This document shows, piece by piece, positions 1 to 21,272 of a stretch of DNA of 64,000 nt (within the stretch, counting starts at the first letter, position 1; each line of letters starts with the position of its first letter). The stretch is from sequence record PX418213.1; one strand, written 5' to 3'. The stretch is from a phage. The notes under the pieces are model-generated. The model was not told the DNA's origin and did not search any database. It saw nothing but the letters and a program-made list of their open reading frames with translations. A program made the translations under genes and the position numbers.

Positions 1-122
1 GTCCAGTGGGTTGGGAGAGAATACTTAGTCTGCTAACCGCCACCCCCGTTACTATTACCATGCTAAATGTTTCACCCTGCAACCATTTTAATTGCAAGGT
101 GAAACAATTTCAACTTTAATTA

Positions 123-899
123 TTACGCGACTTTTAGTTTCTCAATATATTGTTGCGGGCTGCAACTATATTCTGCGCGTTCTTCTTCTGTCATACTTTC
201 CCAACATAGTTTTAAGCGATCGGCTAGGAACTGATAATCATTATCATCCTCGAGCGATTCATCAATAAAGGTTCCGCCTATCAATGCCACGCCGATTGAT
301 AGAATATCATTAACGGCTTGCGCGTCCAACGTTTTAAATCCGTATGATGCCGCCGCTGATAATACACCTTTATGATCATCAATCATTGTAAAATCAGCGT
401 TCGGGTATAGCTGTTTAAATAATCCAAAGTAGTAACTTTTATATACTGCGTCCTTGCTGTGGTATATTTCGCTAACCTTATCAGCTTCAAAATATTTGTG
501 CAGTGTATCGCGGGAAAATACACGGATATTACTATCCCCACGCCCGCGCAAGCCTTGCTTGCGTAGGAAGTAATAATCTGATTTGCTCATCAGGCGAGCG
601 GTACAAATAAGGTTTAAGGTATTTGCGTCATTCATGCATTGGCGCATATATTCAACTAATGGTAATAAGGTGTCTTGCATTATTAAATGATGCTTGCAAG
701 CCTCGTTTTTGTATTTATTTAAATCTAAATTCCCGTCGCTATCAAAGCAAGGCGCTACGCGATGGAATGAGTTAACGATAGTGCCATCAAGATCCCAAAT
801 CATGACGCGGGAAACATGAGGAAAGCTACGGGTAATATTCGTTTTAACTTGATTCATTTTGTTACGTTCTCCATTAAAGGGATGTAGTTTATCCAGCAT
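123..899 (-). CDS. dmp: HAD-family 5'-deoxyribonucleotidase-like phosphatase (T5 dmp-like)
   Basis: 258-aa ORF; HAD motif I (IWDLDGTIVNS) near N-terminus; sits beside A1-like gene as in T5 pre-early region. Confidence 0.6.
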   Translation of the reverse strand: MLDKLHPFNGERNKMNQVKTNITRSFPHVSRVMIWDLDGTIVNSFHRVAPCFDSDGNLDLNKYKNEACKHHLIMQDTLLPLVEYMRQCMNDANTLNLICTARLMSKSDYYFLRKQGLRGRGDSNIRVFSRDTLHKYFEADKVSEIYHSKDAVYKSYYFGLFKQLYPNADFTMIDDHKGVLSAAASYGFKTLDAQAVNDILSIGVALIGGTFIDESLEDDNDYQFLADRLKLCWESMTEEERAEYSCSPQQYIEKLKVA

Positions 900-1397: not shown

Positions 1398-3083
1398 TTA
1401 TGCGAAAAACTTACCGTTTTTAAAGTCAATCAAAGTGCGCTGGCCGTTCGCATAGGTAATTAAATGCGTTTGCGTCCAGCTTGACGCGCCAACGTTATAG
1501 CCCATATCTAGGGAACCAGCAACGCCCGCCGTATATACGCCGCCGTAAATGCTGGCGGTGTGAGTGTGCCCCGTGTTTAACTTGCCCAATTTCTTAAACT
1601 GCTTAGGATTGCCACGGCTGCCGTTTATGCCGTTGTGACCGTGTACGCCGCATTCAATGCCTGCAATCTTGAAAGATTGATCAGTCGTTAGGAAAATCGC
1701 GTTAAACTCGCAACCTGCGACGGTACGCAGCGCATAATCTAGCACGTTGAAAGTATCATCCTGCCTTGCAATAGCTGCATAGATAGCGGCATTCAGGCGG
1801 TGATATAATTCCGCGTTTGCTGGATCGTCTTTAATGTTAGCATTGCGATCATCAAGCCAACGGGATAGCGCCAGATCGTGGTTTGATTCCACAATGATTG
1901 TTTGACTAAAATCACGTTCCATTGATTCCAGCACGCGCCCGGTATCGATGAGATCATCCAGAACCTTATCACGTCCGGCTGCATACTGTTTCGCTAGAAA
2001 TACACCAGAAGCGCGGTTATGGTGGTTGCGCGATGTAAAATCATGCACGTCATGCACAAATTGATATTTTGGCTTGAGAATATCCACTAGCCCATAAGTA
2101 TCACCGTGCCCCCATGACGCTGCGGCGCACTCCTCATCAAGTTTTTCGGCGTGTATGTCGCCATATTGCAAGCCTAAAACATGCCCCGACGTTTCAAAGC
2201 ATCCGGTGGGAGTAGCGCAAACGTTCAGATCGTAAAACATGCCGCTTTCGTCCATCGTTTCAAGCTGGCGCACAAAAAACTCACCGTCTTCGTCGAACTC
2301 AACAATCAGCGCACCGAAATTATGCAATGCTTCCGCTTTCTGTCCTGCTTTCTGCTGAATGTAGTTTTTAAGCGTTGCCGTTCCGGTGGAATACATGCGG
2401 CGCACTACTTCACCTTTGAGAGCTGGCACGCTTTCGGCGGTGATTTTAGCGTGACCAATTGCCAGACCTTCCAGATTAAGCGCGGTTGCAGTTTCTGCGA
2501 ATCCAGACAGCGGATAGTCTGCGGTGGGCAAAACATTAATTTCAGCCATGAAAGCGAAACGGCGGTTATTTAAAAACACGTTTTTACTGCAAATATATTT
2601 ATCAAACGCGGAATCATATTTGATTCCGTCTGCGCCTTCCCCATTCTGGAATCCGTTTTTATTATAAATATACTTGCTAACCAGCAAATCAGCGCCGATA
2701 AATTGGGCGTATTGCTCCAACGCGGCTAAAAAGTTTTTATGCGGGAAAGTATTATTTTGAATCGACGTTAGAATAAAGCGTTTACCTTGTTTTACTTCCC
2801 ACTGTTCCACCGTGCTAGAAATAATTCCAGCCGCTTCGGGGCGCTCGTCGTTTTTAATGGCTTTTGCTACTTTCGCCGCTTTTGGTTTCGCTGGTTTATT
2901 TGCTTCCAGCCAATCACAAATCGCGGTGGAGTGTTTTGCAGTATCGTAAACCGCTTTCGAAATATCGTCACAAACTTCCAGCTTGGTGGCGCGCAGACGT
3001 TTACCATAGAAATTAAAGTCAGCGGCCAGCTTCAGGATAACGGTTTGCTTTTCTGCGGAAATAATCATAGTAATAAGCTCCAT
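1398..3083 (-). CDS. A1: A1-like pre-early protein, calcineurin-like metallophosphoesterase
   Basis: 561-aa ORF; phosphoesterase motifs GDIHAE, SNHD, GHTHT; size and position match T5 A1. Confidence 0.6.
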   Translation of the reverse strand: MELITMIISAEKQTVILKLAADFNFYGKRLRATKLEVCDDISKAVYDTAKHSTAICDWLEANKPAKPKAAKVAKAIKNDERPEAAGIISSTVEQWEVKQGKRFILTSIQNNTFPHKNFLAALEQYAQFIGADLLVSKYIYNKNGFQNGEGADGIKYDSAFDKYICSKNVFLNNRRFAFMAEINVLPTADYPLSGFAETATALNLEGLAIGHAKITAESVPALKGEVVRRMYSTGTATLKNYIQQKAGQKAEALHNFGALIVEFDEDGEFFVRQLETMDESGMFYDLNVCATPTGCFETSGHVLGLQYGDIHAEKLDEECAAASWGHGDTYGLVDILKPKYQFVHDVHDFTSRNHHNRASGVFLAKQYAAGRDKVLDDLIDTGRVLESMERDFSQTIIVESNHDLALSRWLDDRNANIKDDPANAELYHRLNAAIYAAIARQDDTFNVLDYALRTVAGCEFNAIFLTTDQSFKIAGIECGVHGHNGINGSRGNPKQFKKLGKLNTGHTHTASIYGGVYTAGVAGSLDMGYNVGASSWTQTHLITYANGQRTLIDFKNGKFFA

Positions 3084-3419: not shown

Positions 3420-3827
3420 TTATTCACCTGCGGCTTGTTTTACCTCATCGGCAACGCCTAACAACTGCGCCACGGCGTCCAGCGTTTCCAGCTTCGCGCT
3501 TTCAAGGCTTGCCAGATCATCGGCGTCCTTGATAATGCCGGAATCGATAGCGTGTTTTGCAATTACTCGCACATAGTGAGCTTTACGGATTGAGCTGCCG
3601 CCGCCAACCTTGCGCGGCTTGTCGCTTTTTTGGTAGGCTTTCGCGCTGGTCAATTTCGAACGAACTGACACGGGAGAAGCCGCACCAACTGCTTTCGCGA
3701 TCTCTTTCAAGCCGTCGCTATTTGCGAATTCTAGCCCGTTTTCATTGATTAACTGCTGATACATGGAAACAGCCTGCTGGGTGTTTTCTTCGTTCCAGGA
3801 AAATTTTGCGGCTTTAACGTTAGTCAT
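3420..3827 (-). CDS. hypothetical protein
   Basis: 135-aa ORF, co-directional, tightly packed. Confidence 0.55.
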   Translation of the reverse strand: MTNVKAAKFSWNEENTQQAVSMYQQLINENGLEFANSDGLKEIAKAVGAASPVSVRSKLTSAKAYQKSDKPRKVGGGSSIRKAHYVRVIAKHAIDSGIIKDADDLASLESAKLETLDAVAQLLGVADEVKQAAGE

Positions 3828-8301: not shown

Positions 8302-8496
8302 ATGAGCAATAAAATTGTTGTAACCAAAACTACTACGATGGTAGACGTTTTTTACGTGCCCAATACGCCGGAGAATCGACAAGCGGTTGAGCGTGGGGAA
8401 TATGATAAAGTGATCTATGATCACGATGGTTATTATCAGTATTTGGTGGATTCATACGGGGAGGAGGAAAAGATCACGCATCAACTACCTGACTAA
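8302..8496 (+). CDS. hypothetical protein
   Basis: 64-aa ORF, last gene of plus-strand block. Confidence 0.5.
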   Translation: MSNKIVVTKTTTMVDVFYVPNTPENRQAVERGEYDKVIYDHDGYYQYLVDSYGEEEKITHQLPD

Positions 8497-8754
8497 TAAT
8501 CACGGGGCGCAACTATCCGGGAGTGCCCCCAATTTTCAAACGATAATCATTCTCATTTGACCGCGCTCGCGATGGTTAGCCTGCTAATGGTTCGGGTGTT
8601 ACGTGTCGCCTTGTGTGATCGTTAGCGTGCTAACTAATTTTCAAGCCTCCTCCAATTTTGCCCTTGTTTTAGTATCTCCACCAAAATAAAACGCGTTAGA
8701 ATGCGTTTGAGAGCGTTTTAGCGGTATATTAGAATTATTCACTACATAGGAATA

Positions 8755-8886
8755 CTGTATATTTATACAGTAGGATAAGCTGTGGATAAGTCTGTTAATA
8801 ACGCCTCAAAATGGCTAGGATTCTGTCAAGTCAAATCGTGCTGTTAATAAGTCTGTGGATAACTTAAATAACAGTGTTTCTCACTT
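8755..8886. repeat. right arm of ~130-bp imperfect inverted repeat with TGTGGATAA boxes
   Basis: ctgtatatttatacagtaggataagctgtggataag ... tgtggataacttaaataacagtgtttctcac mirrors 5366-5497. Confidence 0.65.
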
Positions 8887-8889
8887 CCG

Positions 8890-9125
8890 TTCTTAAATGA
8901 GAATCATTATCATTTGCATTTCACTATCTAACTAATAATCATTCCACTTTTTAAATGAGAATCGTTCCACTTCCTGAATAATTTTCGTTCCACTTTCTAA
9001 ATGATAATCGTTATCATTTGCATTCCTCTTTCTAAATGCGAATCATTCCACTTCTTAAATGAGAATCGTTTCACTTTTTAAATGAGAATTATTATCATTC
9101 TCATTCCGCTTTTTAAATGAGAATG
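8890..9125. repeat. array of about 7 TAAATGAGAAT-type motifs
   Basis: taaatgagaat and variants (taaatgataat, taaatgcgaat) at irregular 23-60 bp spacing in AT-rich DNA. Confidence 0.6.
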
Positions 9126-9148
9126 ATTCTTATTATCATTCGTATTTA

Positions 9149-9170
9149 GCGCAGGGCAATTGCCCTGCGC
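9149..9170. promoter_or_regulatory. perfect 22-bp palindrome GCGCAGGGCAATTGCCCTGCGC
   Basis: exact palindrome between the two repeat arrays. Confidence 0.6.
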
Positions 9171-9174
9171 TTTT

Positions 9175-9397
9175 GTGCAAATCCGACATTGCTCCACGGG
9201 TGTTACGTGCGGGCGTGTATGTGCGAATCCGACAATTTTTGGTAGTGTGCAAATCCGACTCGAAAAATTTTTATAGTGTGCAAATCCGACAATGAATTTT
9301 TCTAGAAACTCCAGCAATCTCGAACTGCGCATCAATCCTGTGGAGTATGTGCAAATCCGACATGGTTTTTCTAGGATTAAGATGTGCGAATCCGACA
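9175..9397. repeat. six direct copies of GTGC(A/G)AATCCGAC, each followed by a T-run
   Basis: copies at 9175, 9221, 9247, 9278, 9349, 9384. Confidence 0.7.
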
Positions 9398-9725
9398 AGA
9401 TTTTTGTGACTTCGATGAGAGGGTGTGTGATTGTGTGAGTTTGAGGAGAAGTTGAGAGAGCGAGTGAAACTTGGGGGAACTGCGAGAGGGGCGCATGTTT
9501 GGTGCAGGGCACCTGATTTGCGGGGATTTTGGGGAAGAGTTGAGAAGATTTGGGTTAATTTGAGATTAGGGGAGATAAAGTAAAATTTTATTAGCAAAAT
9601 GGGGCAAAATAGCTTGACAAGTGAAAATTTCTGTGGCTCTAAAAACTCAGGCAATCATGGGCCTTCGGCCCGAAATAATGCTGCTATTTTCAGGAGATTA
9701 TATGTTCCTAAAAACTTAGGCAATT

Positions 9726-9774
9726 GTGCAAATCCGACCATAAATTTCTAGAAACACAATGTGCGAATCCGACA
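9726..9774. repeat. two further GTGC(A/G)AATCCGAC copies
   Basis: gtgcaaatccgacc at 9726 and gtgcgaatccgaca at 9761. Confidence 0.65.
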
Positions 9775-10284
9775 GTAATTTCTGGAAATGTGTTTTCAAA
9801 AAATGTCCCCTAGAAATAACCGCCCTCCTCATAACCGCCCTGTATTAAACCGCCTAGTATATGTTCCTAGAAACTTAGGAGAACCGCCCACTAGAAGTGT
9901 AGTATCTCGTGAGTATTTCGTGAGAACTCTGGAGTTTCTAGGAAAGTGTTGTGCCACCCTAGCAGATGAGCGGCAACAGGTGTATCATCTTGAATGTAAA
10001 TTATGTGGTCAAAAGTTTTACTTTTATTTTAAATATAAGATCCCCCAGGGTTCTCATATAGAGCTTTGCCCCCGCCAGAAGGTCTCGTGGTGTTTCTAGC
10101 AATTTATATTAAATTACTTATTAACTTGTCCTGTCGCTCCGTATCCTCCGCTACAAGTTAGTAATTTTAAATTACTGAACCACCACACCTTCTGTGTGGC
10201 AACTCTAAATGGTTAATTCTATTAACTCATAGAGTTATGATAACATACATTTAGCTATCTGTCAACGAGAGTTTGTATTTGAGT

Positions 10285-18607: not shown

Positions 18608-18684
18608 GGCTTTCTCCTATCTTCAAAAATTATTAAAGCCCCCTTTGCCTAAAAAGGCGGGAATATTCCCGCCTAAGTTATTAA

Positions 18685-20519: not shown

Positions 20520-21272
20520 TTATCCAACTAGTGGTTCTAGCTCTAAGTCACAGAAGTTATAAACTTCTAGTTTAAGGTTATTGATACCATCGAATTTATT
20601 AACTAATTCGTGAGTAATATATTTTGCAGGAATACCACTTTCAGATGGATGATCTGATTTAATAGTAAACTTCTGCTCAGCGGGTACTACATTTACTATC
20701 AAAGAATCCATATCTAAATGGTTTGTTTCTCTGAGTAGCTCTCCTTCATTGGGGAATCTAACATCTGTTATTACGGCGACGTCTGGGTCGTCTTTAGCGA
20801 TGGATTGCTCCAGAATTATGAGCCAAATGCGTTCGTGCACCAGCTGTCTTCCTAGCTCTGTCCCTACGAGCTGTAACATTTTTCTCGGAGAAATAAATAA
20901 ACTGTAAAGTCCGTCTTCTTTATTCTCTGAGATAAGTTGTTGAGGATTAAGATATTTTTCCTCAAAAATAGGCCAAACGTACGAGAAGTCTTCAAACTTA
21001 TCGATACCGTACTTAAACCACACATCTCTGGCTCGCTCCAATTGAGATTGTGTGACCGTAAACCATTGGTCAATCTCTTTCCCCCTGCGCTCTCCTAGAA
21101 ACTCTGGAGTTACACCGAGGATTACGGATGCAAGTTCATAAACGGGCTTAGCAAAACTATAACGATGAGAAAAACACGTTGGATACGTGTCATTACACCA
21201 ATCGATAATTAATTTTGCAACGGTATCTTTTCCCGAACCAGCTTCACCATGTAAACCGACTAATACTGACAT
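20520..21272 (-). CDS. dnk: deoxynucleoside monophosphate kinase
   Basis: 250 aa; P-loop GEAGSGKDT at N-terminus. Confidence 0.65.
   Translation of the reverse strand: MSVLVGLHGEAGSGKDTVAKLIIDWCNDTYPTCFSHRYSFAKPVYELASVILGVTPEFLGERRGKEIDQWFTVTQSQLERARDVWFKYGIDKFEDFSYVWPIFEEKYLNPQQLISENKEDGLYSLFISPRKMLQLVGTELGRQLVHERIWLIILEQSIAKDDPDVAVITDVRFPNEGELLRETNHLDMDSLIVNVVPAEQKFTIKSDHPSESGIPAKYITHELVNKFDGINNLKLEVYNFCDLELEPLVG

What the first reader, a model, noticed from the sequence alone, without database searches (positions are those of the whole stretch)
8890..9170. Irregular array of TAAATGAGAAT motifs ending at a perfect 22-bp palindrome
Seven TAAATGAGAAT-like units at variable spacing in AT-rich DNA are followed by GCGCAGGGCAATTGCCCTGCGC (9149-9170). 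This is not CRISPR-like; it looks like a clustered binding-site array plus a cruciform or terminator-like palindrome.
Basis: seen in the sequence. Interest (0 to 1): 0.5.

Follow-up and report, generated by a model that had tools for sequence, protein, structure and literature searches.

The report
Fur-box array in T5 injection-stop region
This is the already described repeat-and-palindrome block of the "injection stop signal" in a T5-like phage's terminal repeat; its repeat units score as near-consensus binding sites for the host iron regulator Fur, which I found reported nowhere and which offers a testable lead on how T5 pauses DNA injection.

Summary
Positions 8894-9148 are a gap-free head-to-tail mosaic of nine units, four of 35 bp and five of 23 bp. 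The mosaic ends at a perfect 24-bp palindrome (9148-9171). The window is a T5-like phage. The block is the homologue of the untranslated "Repeat Region 3" / injection stop signal (iss) of phage T5, whose repeats have been catalogued but never explained.

New here: a weight matrix learned de novo from 12 footprinted E. coli Fur operators puts its seven best hits in the 64-kb window inside 8539-9140. They score 18.9-25.9 bits; true operators score a median 18.3 bits when left out of training. Sites overlap at 6-bp offsets, as in real Fur clusters. The motif persists next to DnaA boxes in five lineages, including a Vibrio phage with unrelated linkers. The arms show no compensatory covariation, so the units read as protein sites, not hairpins.

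The palindrome is a conserved GC hairpin plus T-run. Its right arm is the T5 "7.9%" nick site (A|GCGCAGGG).

Best reading: a host-factor (Fur, alongside DnaA) landing pad at the trailing end of first-step-transfer DNA. Binding and role are untested. The element itself is already known.

The parts
8504..8529 (+). Context: hairpin just after the last pre-early ORF (8302-8496). It is the homologue of T5's annotated putative rho-independent terminator and marks the left edge of the untranslated region.
   Evidence: Fold -15.4 kcal/mol. T5 annotation 9275-9296. ORF list.
8539..8557 (.). Isolated Fur-box-like dyad AACGATAATCATTCTCATT, 340 bp upstream of the array.
   Evidence: 23.7 bits on the Fur matrix, 4th best hit in the window. 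Similar sites at the equivalent place in phiR2-01, S113 and SuperGirl.
8781..8862 (+). Context: two DnaA-box pairs. TGTGGATAA at 8781 and 8854; variant TGTTAATAA at 8793 and 8842. This corresponds to the IRD'-spacer-IRC' element of the T5 literature.
   Evidence: (family D6). Davison preprint, section 3.3.3.
8873..8887 (+). Conserved anchor AGTGTTTCTCACTTC immediately before the array.
   Evidence: Exact in 34 distinct T5-like arrays.
8894..8928 (+). Long unit 1 (35 bp). Dyad AATGAGAATCATTATCATT at 8896-8914, plus an overlapping site 6 bp to the right.
   Evidence: 25.9 and 15.8 bits; the best Fur-matrix hit in the window.
8929..8951 (+). Short unit (23 bp, degenerate): TAACTAATAATCATTCCACTTTT.
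   Evidence: Weak site of 10.1 bits.
8952..8974 (+). Short unit (23 bp) with one half-site: TAAATGAGAATCGTTCCACTTCC.
   Evidence: 12.2 bits.
8975..8997 (+). Short unit (23 bp, degenerate): TGAATAATTTTCGTTCCACTTTC.
   Evidence: 5.2-5.7 bits.
8998..9032 (+). Long unit 2 (35 bp). Dyad AATGATAATCGTTATCATT at 9000-9018, plus an overlapping site at +6.
   Evidence: 25.4 and 13.4 bits.
9033..9055 (+). Short unit (23 bp): TAAATGCGAATCATTCCACTTCT.
   Evidence: 11.6 bits.
9056..9078 (+). Short unit (23 bp): TAAATGAGAATCGTTTCACTTTT.
   Evidence: 12.4 bits.
9079..9113 (+). Long unit 3 (35 bp). A 25-bp dyad AATGAGAAT-TATTATC-ATTCTCATT, i.e. two overlapping sites at 9081 and 9087.
   Evidence: 24.6 and 20.1 bits. 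Perfect 9-bp arms, read directly from the sequence; the repeat finder lists 12-bp arms with 1-nt spacing, 92% complementary, as I16.
9114..9148 (+). Long unit 4 (35 bp). Overlapping sites at 9116 and 9122. It abuts the palindrome.
   Evidence: 22.6 and 18.9 bits.
9148..9171 (.). Perfect 24-bp palindrome AGCGCAGGGCAA/TTGCCCTGCGCT. It forms a GC-rich hairpin.
   Evidence: (I15). Fold -24.4 kcal/mol on the + strand and -21.9 on the - strand. Stem conserved with a variable loop in relatives.
9171..9177 (+). T-run TTTTGTG after the hairpin. Together with the hairpin it makes an intrinsic-terminator-like signal for rightward transcription.
   Evidence: Conserved as GCGCTT(T/A)TGTGC in relatives. The simple terminator scan did not list it.
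9163..9171 (-). Predicted site-specific nick site, minus strand 5'-A|GCGCAGGG, with the cut between 9171 and 9170. It is the homologue of T5's 7.9% major nick.
   Evidence: The T5 record places a nick at 9748/9749 right after ...CCCTGCGC. The three T5 nicks examined share A|GCGCAGGG. The record's consensus is 5'-NPu pGCGCN-3'.
9148..9156 (+). Second copy of the nick motif A|GCGCAGGG, on the + strand. It is present only in this lineage; T5 has GAGCAGGG here.
9175..9396 (+). Context: six copies of GTGC(A/G)AATCCGAC (DRD repeats of the T5 literature) at 9175, 9221, 9247, 9278, 9349 and 9384.
   Evidence: (D3, D4).
9629..9639 (+). Inferred right end of the left terminal repeat (...TTCTGTGGCTC), by alignment with T5's annotated repeat end.
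   Evidence: T5 repeat_region ends at 10219. The same motif is found in the window.

Best explanation
The feature is the central block of the T5-type injection stop signal (iss, 'Repeat Region 3'). It lies in the untranslated right end of the left terminal repeat, between a pair of DnaA-box elements and the DRD repeat array.

Anatomy, shown here: nine abutting units of 35 or 23 bp. Each 35-bp unit carries a 19-25 bp dyad that is a near-consensus operator for the host ferric uptake regulator Fur, made of two overlapping sites 6 bp apart. Each 23-bp unit carries a half or weak site.

Mechanism, inferred: when the first 8% of the genome has entered the cell, pre-existing Fe(II)-Fur dimers coat this roughly 255-bp stretch (about 10 strong positions plus weak ones), and DnaA occupies the adjacent boxes. 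The result is a large host-protein/DNA complex on the last-entered DNA. Its most likely roles are to hold or mark that DNA end during the pause, and to act as a roadblock that keeps RNA polymerase leaving the pre-early genes from reaching the untransferred DNA. A direct role in the stop itself is possible but unproven.

Palindrome: the GC hairpin plus T-run behaves as a terminator-like structural element. Its right arm is the recognition site of the phage nickase, so the boundary of the first-step DNA coincides with the '7.9%' nick. This is shown by homology to the T5 annotation; the nick itself was not observed here.
For: (1) Identity of the region. It is 82-93% identical to T5-like phages across 8500-9700. 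The T5 record annotates the iss at 9140-10149 and a nick at 9748/9749. The order of elements matches the published description.

(2) Fur matrix. Palindromic EM on 12 DNase-footprinted E. coli K-12 Fur regions, with no seed consensus, gives ATTGATAATCATTATCAAT. Leave-one-out scores of the true operators have a median of 18.3 bits (range 9.4-25.2). In 20 kb of E. coli control DNA every hit >=18 bits falls in a footprinted region.

(3) Window scan. The top 7 of about 64,000 positions are all in 8539-9140: 25.9, 25.4, 24.6, 23.7, 22.6, 20.1 and 18.9 bits. Simulations give 0.2 hits >=18 bits per window. Composition-matched shuffles of the array itself never reach the observed count (0 of 2000).

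(4) Cluster architecture. There are 26 positive-bit sites covering 241 of 255 bp, spaced 6 or 3 bp apart within units. Chen et al. 2007 report exactly this spacing for genuine Fur clusters.

(5) Unbiased motif. De novo EM on 36 phage arrays gives AATGAGAATCATTCTCATT. Its matrix correlates 0.87 with the Fur matrix at zero shift; the null mean is 0.32 and the null maximum 0.52. It departs from the Fur consensus at Fur's low-information positions 2, 6, 14 and 18 (consensus strings; per-position information); the columns that vary most among relatives in the first unit are Fur positions 5-6, 10 and 14.

(6) Conservation. All 34 distinct T5-like arrays (Tequintavirus, Epseptimavirus, Sugarlandvirus) have 3-9 sites >=15 bits although array length varies from 136 to 325 bp. 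Pantoea phage AAS21 and Vibrio phage ValDsh2 keep the cluster next to DnaA boxes, and in ValDsh2 the linkers are unrelated. A motif kept while its surroundings turn over is what a fixed host specificity predicts.

(7) Protein site rather than hairpin. There is no excess complementarity at variable arm positions (0.51 against 0.45, and 0.46 against 0.47).

(8) No phage Fur. None of 10 pre-early ORFs matches any Pfam DNA-binding family, Fur included.

(9) Palindrome.
Against: - No binding experiment exists; everything rests on sequence.
- The repeats arose by duplication, so the sites within one phage are not independent observations.
- Genuine Fur clusters usually overlap promoters (83% in Chen et al.). 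Here only weak promoter-like hexamers are found.
- Fur occupancy depends on iron. T5's receptor FhuA is itself Fur-repressed (my own knowledge), so the cells richest in that receptor would have the least active Fur. That is awkward for an essential step.
- A cytoplasmic protein has no obvious way to halt DNA at the envelope.
- The array is not universal. Vibrio phage Chazly21 (Thalassavirus) has a different 15-bp repeat at the same place, and Proteus phage 2 keeps only half-sites.
- The phage consensus prefers GAGAAT/GCGAAT to Fur's GATAAT. That could reflect a different, Fur-like specificity.
Confidence: 0.55

Rival explanations
1. The dyads are operators for a phage protein, most obviously the pre-early DNA-binding protein A2 (with A1). 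A2 is essential for second-step transfer and would bind here to restart DNA entry. On this reading the resemblance to Fur boxes is convergent or incidental.
For: The window's A2 homologue (3420-3827, minus strand) belongs to phrog_1725 'DNA binding protein'. The 2026 T5 preprint states that A2 is a DNA-binding protein needed for second-step transfer and 'may associate with viral DNA'. The site lies at the transfer boundary. The phage consensus (GAGAAT/GCGAAT) differs slightly from Fur's GATAAT.
Against: The motif coincides with Fur's in register and information profile far beyond chance. A2 is retained at 42% identity in Chazly21, which lacks the array. So A2 does not require these sites. The element that, like A1 and A2, is present in every genus examined is the DRD motif GTGC(A/G)AAT(C/T)C, which makes DRD the better A2 candidate. 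The stop occurs without phage protein synthesis (established T5 literature, from my own knowledge), although restart does not.
Confidence: 0.2
2. The palindromic units act as DNA structure rather than protein sites. They would extrude as hairpins or cruciforms, helped by the adjacent nick, and jam mechanically in the tail or channel to stop injection.
For: The region has a high density of dyads (20 inverted-repeat pairs). There is a nick site at its right edge. The terminal GC hairpin is strong and its stem shows one compensatory variant.
Against: For the AT-rich units the variable arm positions are no more complementary than chance. The 23-bp units have no dyad at all. From my own knowledge, T5 is reported to eject its DNA in vitro on purified FhuA without a stable stop at 8%, and nickless mutants are reported to transfer in two steps; I did not check either point here. 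The compensatory signal concerns only the GC hairpin.
Confidence: 0.07
3. The right end of the array is a Fur-repressed promoter driving a short non-coding RNA that ends at the hairpin terminator, in the manner of RyhB or PrrF.
For: Fur boxes followed by a strong hairpin and U-run form the classic layout of such genes. A 9/12 promoter-like match TTCACT-17-TATCAT at 9070-9098 overlaps the 9081 and 9087 sites. Sub-threshold Rfam hits to sRNA families, including PrrF (24.8 bits, gathering score 90), all end at the hairpin.
Against: All Rfam hits are far below their gathering scores. The promoter-like hexamers are weak and I could not find them at the equivalent place in T5 by eye. The published descriptions read here treat the region only as non-coding or untranslated and mention no transcript.
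Confidence: 0.08
4. Fur decoy: replicated phage DNA, with two arrays per genome, soaks up Fur and derepresses iron uptake to feed the phage's iron-dependent ribonucleotide reductases.
For: The array has a very high site density. T5 encodes NrdAB and NrdD (annotation). Multicopy Fur boxes are known to titrate Fur; this is the basis of the Fur titration assay (my own knowledge).
Against: T5 degrades the host chromosome during the first-step pause, so little host gene expression is left to derepress. Apart from one 17.6-bit hit inside the coding ORF 123-899 (position 230), no phage gene in the 64-kb window has a site of 15 bits or more outside the iss.
Confidence: 0.05

Closest known systems
Phage T5 injection stop signal, 'Repeat Region 3' (DRE/DRC direct repeats, palE-palI, palJ, then DRD). 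Sources: the Davison 2020 preprint 10.1101/866236 as read here, and the NC_005859 annotation. From my own knowledge, the sequence was first reported by Heusterspreute et al. 1987 and Wang et al. 2005.
   Same: Same genomic position, same order of elements and homologous sequence. The GC palindrome lies directly before the DRD repeats, as palJ does in T5.
   Different: This phage has nine units (287 bp from anchor to DRD) where T5 has about six (209 bp). Its palindrome is perfect, so the nick motif is present on both strands. Assigning units to the DRC/DRE/pal names is by order only, because the figure could not be read.
E. coli Fur operator clusters (entC, fhuF, sodA, cirA, fecI and the aerobactin iucA promoter; 19-bp Fur box, overlapping sites 6 bp apart; Chen et al. 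2007, PMC2189734)
   Same: Same 19-bp dyad in the same register. Scores equal or exceed the best footprinted operators. Overlapping sites lie at 6-bp or 3-bp offsets.
   Different: The array covers about 255 bp with 26 positive sites. E. coli clusters hold 1-14 sites over 19-142 bp. There is no convincing overlapping promoter and no downstream gene. It sits in a virulent phage's non-coding terminal repeat. Binding is untested.
T5 site-specific nicks (consensus 5'-NPu|pGCGCN-3' as given in the NC_005859 annotation)
   Same: The right arm of the palindrome is identical to T5's 7.9% nick site. The three T5 nicks examined share A|GCGCAGGG. CTGCGC is kept before the DRD repeats in every genus examined, including those without the hairpin.
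   Different: In this phage the motif also occurs on the + strand, 22 bp away. Whether either strand is nicked in this phage is unknown.
Chromosomal protein-titrating or roadblock site clusters such as the DnaA-binding datA locus (functional analogy only, from my own knowledge)
   Same: A dense non-promoter cluster of high-affinity sites for an abundant host DNA-binding protein, adjacent to DnaA boxes.
   Different: No homology, and none was tested here. It is offered only as a 'works like' comparison.

Membership tests
T5-type injection stop signal region (Repeat Region 3) | Lies in the untranslated right end of the left terminal repeat, downstream of the pre-early genes | tested here: met
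   The last pre-early ORF ends at 8496. No credible ORF lies in 8500-9640. The inferred repeat end is 9639. A1, A2 and dmp homologues lie to the left.
T5-type injection stop signal region (Repeat Region 3) | Order of elements: DnaA-box inverted repeats, then AT-rich repeat/palindrome block, then GC palindrome, then DRD repeats | tested here: met
T5-type injection stop signal region (Repeat Region 3) | Sequence homology to the T5 region | tested here: met
   82% identity to T5 and up to 93% to other T5-like phages over the region.
T5-type injection stop signal region (Repeat Region 3) | Acts in cis to halt DNA transfer at about 8% of the genome | not testable with these tools
   Needs infection experiments. 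Even for T5 the assignment rests on position.
Fur-binding site cluster (Fur boxes) | Match to the 19-bp Fur operator at the level of footprinted sites | tested here: met
   18.9-25.9 bits, against a leave-one-out median of 18.3 bits for true operators.
Fur-binding site cluster (Fur boxes) | Overlapping sites offset by 6 (or 3) bp | tested here: met
   Criterion taken from Chen et al. 2007.
Fur-binding site cluster (Fur boxes) | Overlaps a sigma-70 promoter that it represses | tested here: inconclusive
   Only 9/12 promoter-like matches inside the array. The region has 13 matches against 6.5 +/- 2.6 in shuffles.
Fur-binding site cluster (Fur boxes) | Metal-dependent binding of Fur shown by footprint, gel shift or titration assay | not testable with these tools
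   No experimental data. Searches of the held library for Fur together with T5, first-step transfer, pre-early, Tequintavirus, T5-like or Demerecviridae returned nothing relevant.
Rho-independent terminator | GC-rich stem-loop followed directly by a U-run | tested here: met
   10-bp stem with a 4-nt loop, -24.4 kcal/mol, z = -5.3, then UUUUGUG. The stem is kept with a variable loop in relatives. The simple consensus scan did not list it.
Rho-independent terminator | Terminates a transcript in vivo | not testable with these tools
   No transcript data were available to me.
T5 site-specific nick site | 5'-NPu|pGCGCN-3' on the nicked (minus) strand, at the position homologous to a mapped T5 nick | tested here: met
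   Minus strand reads AAAA|GCGCAGGG, with the cut between 9171 and 9170. It aligns with the T5 nick at 9748/9749.
T5 site-specific nick site | Physical interruption present in virion DNA of this phage | not testable with these tools
   Needs nick mapping on virion DNA.
CRISPR array | Constant-length direct repeats separated by unique spacers of similar length | tested here: not met
   The units abut without spacers and are of two lengths.

The most novel reading that the evidence does not exclude
T5-like phages carry, at the boundary of their first-step-transfer DNA, the largest known natural cluster of Fur operators. The host iron regulator Fur, with DnaA on the neighbouring boxes, is a host factor of two-step DNA injection. 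It would either form the nucleoprotein complex that holds or insulates the paused DNA, or make the pause or restart sensitive to the cell's iron state or to release of DNA-binding proteins from the degraded host chromosome. I put in-vitro Fur binding at about 0.75, from the scores. The probability given below is for binding that matters to the phage.
Probability: 0.4. Interest if true: 0.7.

Novelty: already known. Interest (0 to 1): 0.5.

Why it matters
How T5 stops injecting after 8% of its genome, and then restarts, remains unresolved. [quoted passage not shown] The one detailed analysis calls the function of these repeats "impossible to guess" and proposes DnaA as the host factor.

Recognising the main repeat as a Fur operator names a second, abundant and easily manipulated host protein. 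That turns an anatomical curiosity into simple experiments: gel shifts, fur mutants, iron chelation and array point mutants. It also separates three layers of the region:
- host-factor sites (DnaA, Fur);
- a family-wide motif pair (CTGCGC and DRD) that tracks the universal A1/A2 proteins;
- a hairpin/nick element.

If Fur does not bind, the array still stands as a conserved operator array for some other dimeric protein.

Tried and rejected
- CRISPR-like array: rejected, because there are no spacers.
- Selected hairpins or cruciforms in the AT-rich units: rejected, because arm complementarity at variable positions equals the chance level.
- Known RNA family: only sub-threshold Rfam hits. No tRNA search was run.
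- Promoter reading: only weak consensus matches.
- Phage-encoded Fur homologue among the pre-early proteins: none in Pfam. A2 has no relative in the PDB by sequence.
- BLAST of a single 38-bp unit against plasmids, hoping for an unbiased hit to known Fur-regulated promoters: gave only marginal, uninformative matches.
- Fur supplementary site list of Chen et al.: not held. I rebuilt the matrix from the footprint coordinates in their Table 3 instead.
- Davison 2015 review (PMC4743489): not held, so its treatment of these repeats could not be checked.
- Perfect Fur 7-1-7 match at 232-246: lies inside a coding ORF and is treated as probable chance.
- DNA curvature prediction: not attempted.
- A2 structure prediction: not run, judged not decisive.
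Full report
WHAT IS THERE. TAAATGAGAAT occurs five times exactly and twice with one mismatch on the + strand between 8894 and 9124. The whole 64-kb window has 12 matches at <=1 mismatch against 3.6 +/- 1.9 in shuffles, and no shuffle reaches 12. The spacing is not irregular. The stretch 8894-9148 is a gap-free head-to-tail mosaic of nine units of two sizes. The 35-bp units start at 8894, 8998, 9079 and 9114. The 23-bp units start at 8929, 8952, 8975, 9033 and 9056, and two of them are degenerate. The last unit abuts the palindrome (Tandem Repeats Finder periods 23, 35 and 81). The palindrome is perfect over 24 bp (9148-9171). It is the longest in the window, and simulations give 0.01 palindromes with arms >=11 per window.

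WHERE IT IS. The window is a T5-like phage. The A1 homologue at 1398-3083 is 98.4% identical to that of Salmonella phage PH204. The region 8500-9700 is up to 93% identical to many Tequintavirus genomes and 82% identical to T5. [quoted passage not shown] That stretch lies inside the left terminal repeat, which "comprises first-step-transfer DNA". The record also places a "major DNA single-chain interruption" at 9748/9749.

Aligning T5 with the window gives the same order of elements:
- a hairpin after the last pre-early ORF (8504-8529);
- two DnaA-box pairs (8781-8862);
- a conserved 15-mer (8873-8887);
- the AT-rich unit array;
- the GC palindrome;
- six GTGC(A/G)AATCCGAC repeats (9175-9396);
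- the inferred repeat end at 9639.

Davison's preprint (10.1101/866236) lists the same succession (IRD'-spacer-IRC', DRE, DRC copies, palE to palI, palJ, then DRD). It notes the conservation of this succession among 25 T5-like phages and proposes that the DnaA boxes stop injection. [quoted passage not shown] So the object is already known as sequence anatomy, while its function is open.

THE UNITS ARE FUR BOXES. Each long unit holds a dyad such as AAATGAGAAT-C-ATTATCATTT, which I recognised as resembling the Fur operator. I tested this rather than rely on memory. I took the coordinates of 12 DNase-footprinted Fur regions of E. coli K-12 from Table 3 of Chen et al. 2007 (PMC2189734). I fetched them from NC_000913.3 with the coordinate offset checked against gene starts. 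I then ran a palindromic expectation-maximisation of width 19 from random starts, with no seed consensus. It converged on ATTGATAATCATTATCAAT, the known Fur dyad. Leave-one-out best scores of the true operators have a median of 18.3 bits (range 9.4-25.2). In 20 kb of E. coli control DNA every hit >=18 bits lies in a footprinted region.

Scanning the window gave these results:
- The seven best positions of about 64,000 are 8896 (25.9 bits), 9000 (25.4), 9081 (24.6), 8539 (23.7), 9116 (22.6), 9087 (20.1) and 9122 (18.9). All lie in the iss region.
- First-order simulations of the window give 0.2 hits >=18 bits.
- Composition-matched simulations of the AT-rich array itself never reach the observed counts (0 of 2000).
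- Inside the array, 26 positive-bit sites cover 241 of 255 bp. They are spaced 6 or 3 bp apart within each unit, which is the hallmark Chen et al. report for genuine Fur clusters.
- The E. coli clusters in that paper span 19-142 bp with 1-14 sites, so this array would be larger than any of them.
- The long units are thus two-dimer sites. The short units carry one good half-site (10-12 bits).

IS THE MATCH AN ARTEFACT OF SCORING WITH FUR? I derived the phage motif independently by the same de novo procedure on 36 arrays. The result is AATGAGAATCATTCTCATT. Its matrix correlates 0.87 with the Fur matrix at zero shift, against a mean of 0.32 and a maximum of 0.52 for shuffled arrays. The two consensus sequences differ at positions 2, 6, 14 and 18, which are among Fur's low-information positions. 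In the positionally homologous first unit of 31 distinct arrays, the columns that vary most are Fur positions 5-6, 10 and 14. Column entropy correlates -0.44 with Fur information over the 25-bp span.

CONSERVATION. An exact search for the 15-mer anchor in IMG/VR, plus loci fetched from GenBank phages, gave 34 distinct arrays from Tequintavirus, Epseptimavirus and Sugarlandvirus. Array length ranges from 136 to 325 bp, so units are gained and lost. Even so, every array has 3-9 sites >=15 bits, with scores up to 27.6. The modal spacing of strong sites is 35 bp, and the others differ from it by multiples of 6.

Further out the picture is as follows:
- Pantoea phage AAS21 (A1 65% identical) has seven sites of 17.7-23.0 bits beside a DnaA box.
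- Vibrio phage ValDsh2 (Pogseptimavirus) has DnaA boxes followed by sites of 16.6-20.6 bits at 35-bp spacing. Its linkers are unrelated to T5's. Two more sites (18.9 and 25.9 bits) lie upstream.
- Proteus phage 2 (Novosibvirus) has three 46-bp units that keep a perfect AATGATAAT half-site but a degenerate partner.
- Vibrio phage Chazly21 (Thalassavirus) has a different 15-bp repeat, CACTAATATAGGGAT, at the same place. It still keeps the DnaA boxes, CTGCGC and GTGCAAATCCGACA.

A motif held constant while linkers, unit number and hosts change is what a fixed host specificity predicts. Its replacement in one distant lineage shows that the module is not indispensable to the family.

PROTEIN SITE OR DNA STRUCTURE? 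I collected 39 distinct 25-bp dyads. Positions that vary (5/21 and 6/20) are complementary in 0.51 and 0.46 of cases, against 0.45 and 0.47 expected if the arms vary independently. So there is no selection for base pairing in the AT-rich units.

The GC palindrome behaves differently. It folds to -24.4 kcal/mol (z = -5.3) and is followed by UUUUGUG. In relatives the stem GCAGGGCA/TGCCCTGC is kept while the loop changes from AATT to AGTTT, AATTT or 9-10 nt. One variant has compensating changes on both arms. That fits a hairpin, terminator-like for rightward transcription, although the simple terminator scan did not list it.

THE NICK SITE. The T5 record's three left-hand major nicks are at 9748/9749, 22336/22337 and 39746/39747. 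On the nicked strand they read AAAA|GCGCAGGG, GAGA|GCGCAGGG and GAGA|GCGCAGGG. This extends the record's consensus NPu|pGCGCN. In the window GCGCAGGG occurs three times only. One copy is on the minus strand at 9163-9170, the homologue of the 7.9% nick. One is on the minus strand at 21083-21090, the homologue of the 18.5% nick. One is on the plus strand at 9149-9156, because this lineage's palindrome is perfect. T5 has GAGCAGGG on that arm. CTGCGC directly before the DRD repeats is present in every genus examined, including those that lack the hairpin's left arm. The nick or recognition motif is therefore the most deeply conserved part of the palindrome.

MECHANISM. Three things are shown: the anatomy, the Fur-operator identity of the dyads by score and architecture, and the conservation pattern. 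The rest is inferred. On this reading, pre-existing Fur dimers load onto the array once it has entered, next to DnaA on its boxes. They form a large host-protein complex on the trailing end of first-step DNA. That complex could hold the DNA, or block RNA polymerase coming from the pre-early operon from reaching DNA that has not yet entered.

I do not claim that it causes the stop, for four reasons:
- A cytoplasmic protein has no clear way to arrest DNA at the envelope.
- Fur activity depends on iron.
- FhuA-rich cells are those with least active Fur (my own knowledge).
- The array is absent from Thalassavirus.

A Fur-decoy role is unattractive because T5 destroys the host chromosome during the pause.

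The main rival is binding by the phage's A2 protein (phrog_1725 "DNA binding protein"). Against it, A2 is retained at 42% identity in Chazly21, which has no such array. The motif that is as universal as A1 and A2 is DRD, not this array. No pre-early ORF resembles Fur or any Pfam DNA-binding family. A Fur-repressed small RNA ending at the hairpin is conceivable. Its only support is a weak promoter match and sub-threshold Rfam hits, one of them to PrrF.

LITERATURE CHECK AND ITS LIMITS. The Davison preprint contains no occurrence of "Fur". Searches combining Fur, Fur box or ferric uptake regulator with phage T5, first-step transfer, pre-early, Tequintavirus, T5-like or Demerecviridae returned nothing relevant. 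The 2015 review could not be read. Most subscription papers, including (to my knowledge) the 1987 and 2005 T5 sequence papers, are not in the library. So "not reported" means not found in what I could search.

VERDICT. The element is the already described T5 iss repeat block, so it is not novel as an object. The Fur-operator identity of its units appears to be new and is strongly supported by sequence statistics. It is untested biochemically, and its role in injection is speculative.

Noticed in passing
window 9148-9156 (+) and 9163-9171 (-): Because the palindrome is perfect in this lineage, the T5 nick motif A|GCGCAGGG is present on both strands, 22 bp apart. T5 and many relatives have it only on the minus strand. 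If both strands were cut, the genome would carry a staggered double-strand break at the first-step boundary.
   Followed up: partly
window 21083-21091 (-): This is the only other exact AGCGCAGGG in the window. It corresponds to T5's 18.5% major nick. No exact copy was found for the 32.6% nick.
   Followed up: partly
window 232-246: A perfect match to the Fur 7-1-7 core TGATAATCATTATCA (17.6 bits on the 19-mer), near the genome's left end. It lies inside the minus-strand ORF 123-899, so it is probably chance.
   Followed up: no
L109 (Vibrio phage Chazly21) about 100-215, minus strand: At the position of the Fur-like array this Thalassavirus has 4-5 tandem copies of a different 15-bp unit, CACTAATATAGGGAT. 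It keeps the DnaA boxes, CTGCGC and GTGCAAATCCGACA. The array slot is conserved but its motif has been swapped.
   Followed up: partly
window 9175-9396, 9726-9773; L106, L108, L109: The DRD motif GTGC(A/G)AAT(C/T)C... is found in every Demerecviridae genus examined, with lineage-specific variants (for example GAGTGCGGATTCTAT in ValDsh2). Two more copies lie beyond the inferred repeat end. Its distribution parallels that of A1 and A2, which suggests it is the phage-protein site.
   Followed up: partly
34 related arrays: Array length is polymorphic (136-325 bp). Unit lengths are all 6n-1 bp (23, 29, 35, 41, 47). Strong sites are most often 35 bp apart, about 3.3 helical turns, and this holds even in the Vibrio phage.
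   Followed up: partly
window 8593-8617 and 9197-9221: A direct repeat CGGGTGTTACGTG... (80% over 25 nt) brackets the DnaA-box/Fur-array/palindrome block, with copies 604 bp apart.
   Followed up: no
window 9420-9560: A G-rich, purine-skewed stretch with GAGTTGAGA-type repeats lies between the DRD repeats and the repeat end. It includes a degenerate copy of the palindrome arm (GTGCAGGGCACCTGATTTGCG at 9501-9522).
   Followed up: no
window 9047-9188 (+): Sub-threshold Rfam hits to small-RNA families (rliI, PrrF, tsr26, Hrs12) all end at the GC hairpin. PrrF is itself a Fur-regulated sRNA, but the score is 24.8 against a gathering score of 90.
   Followed up: partly
window 18655-18674: The second-longest perfect palindrome in the window (10-bp arms). 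Not examined.
   Followed up: no
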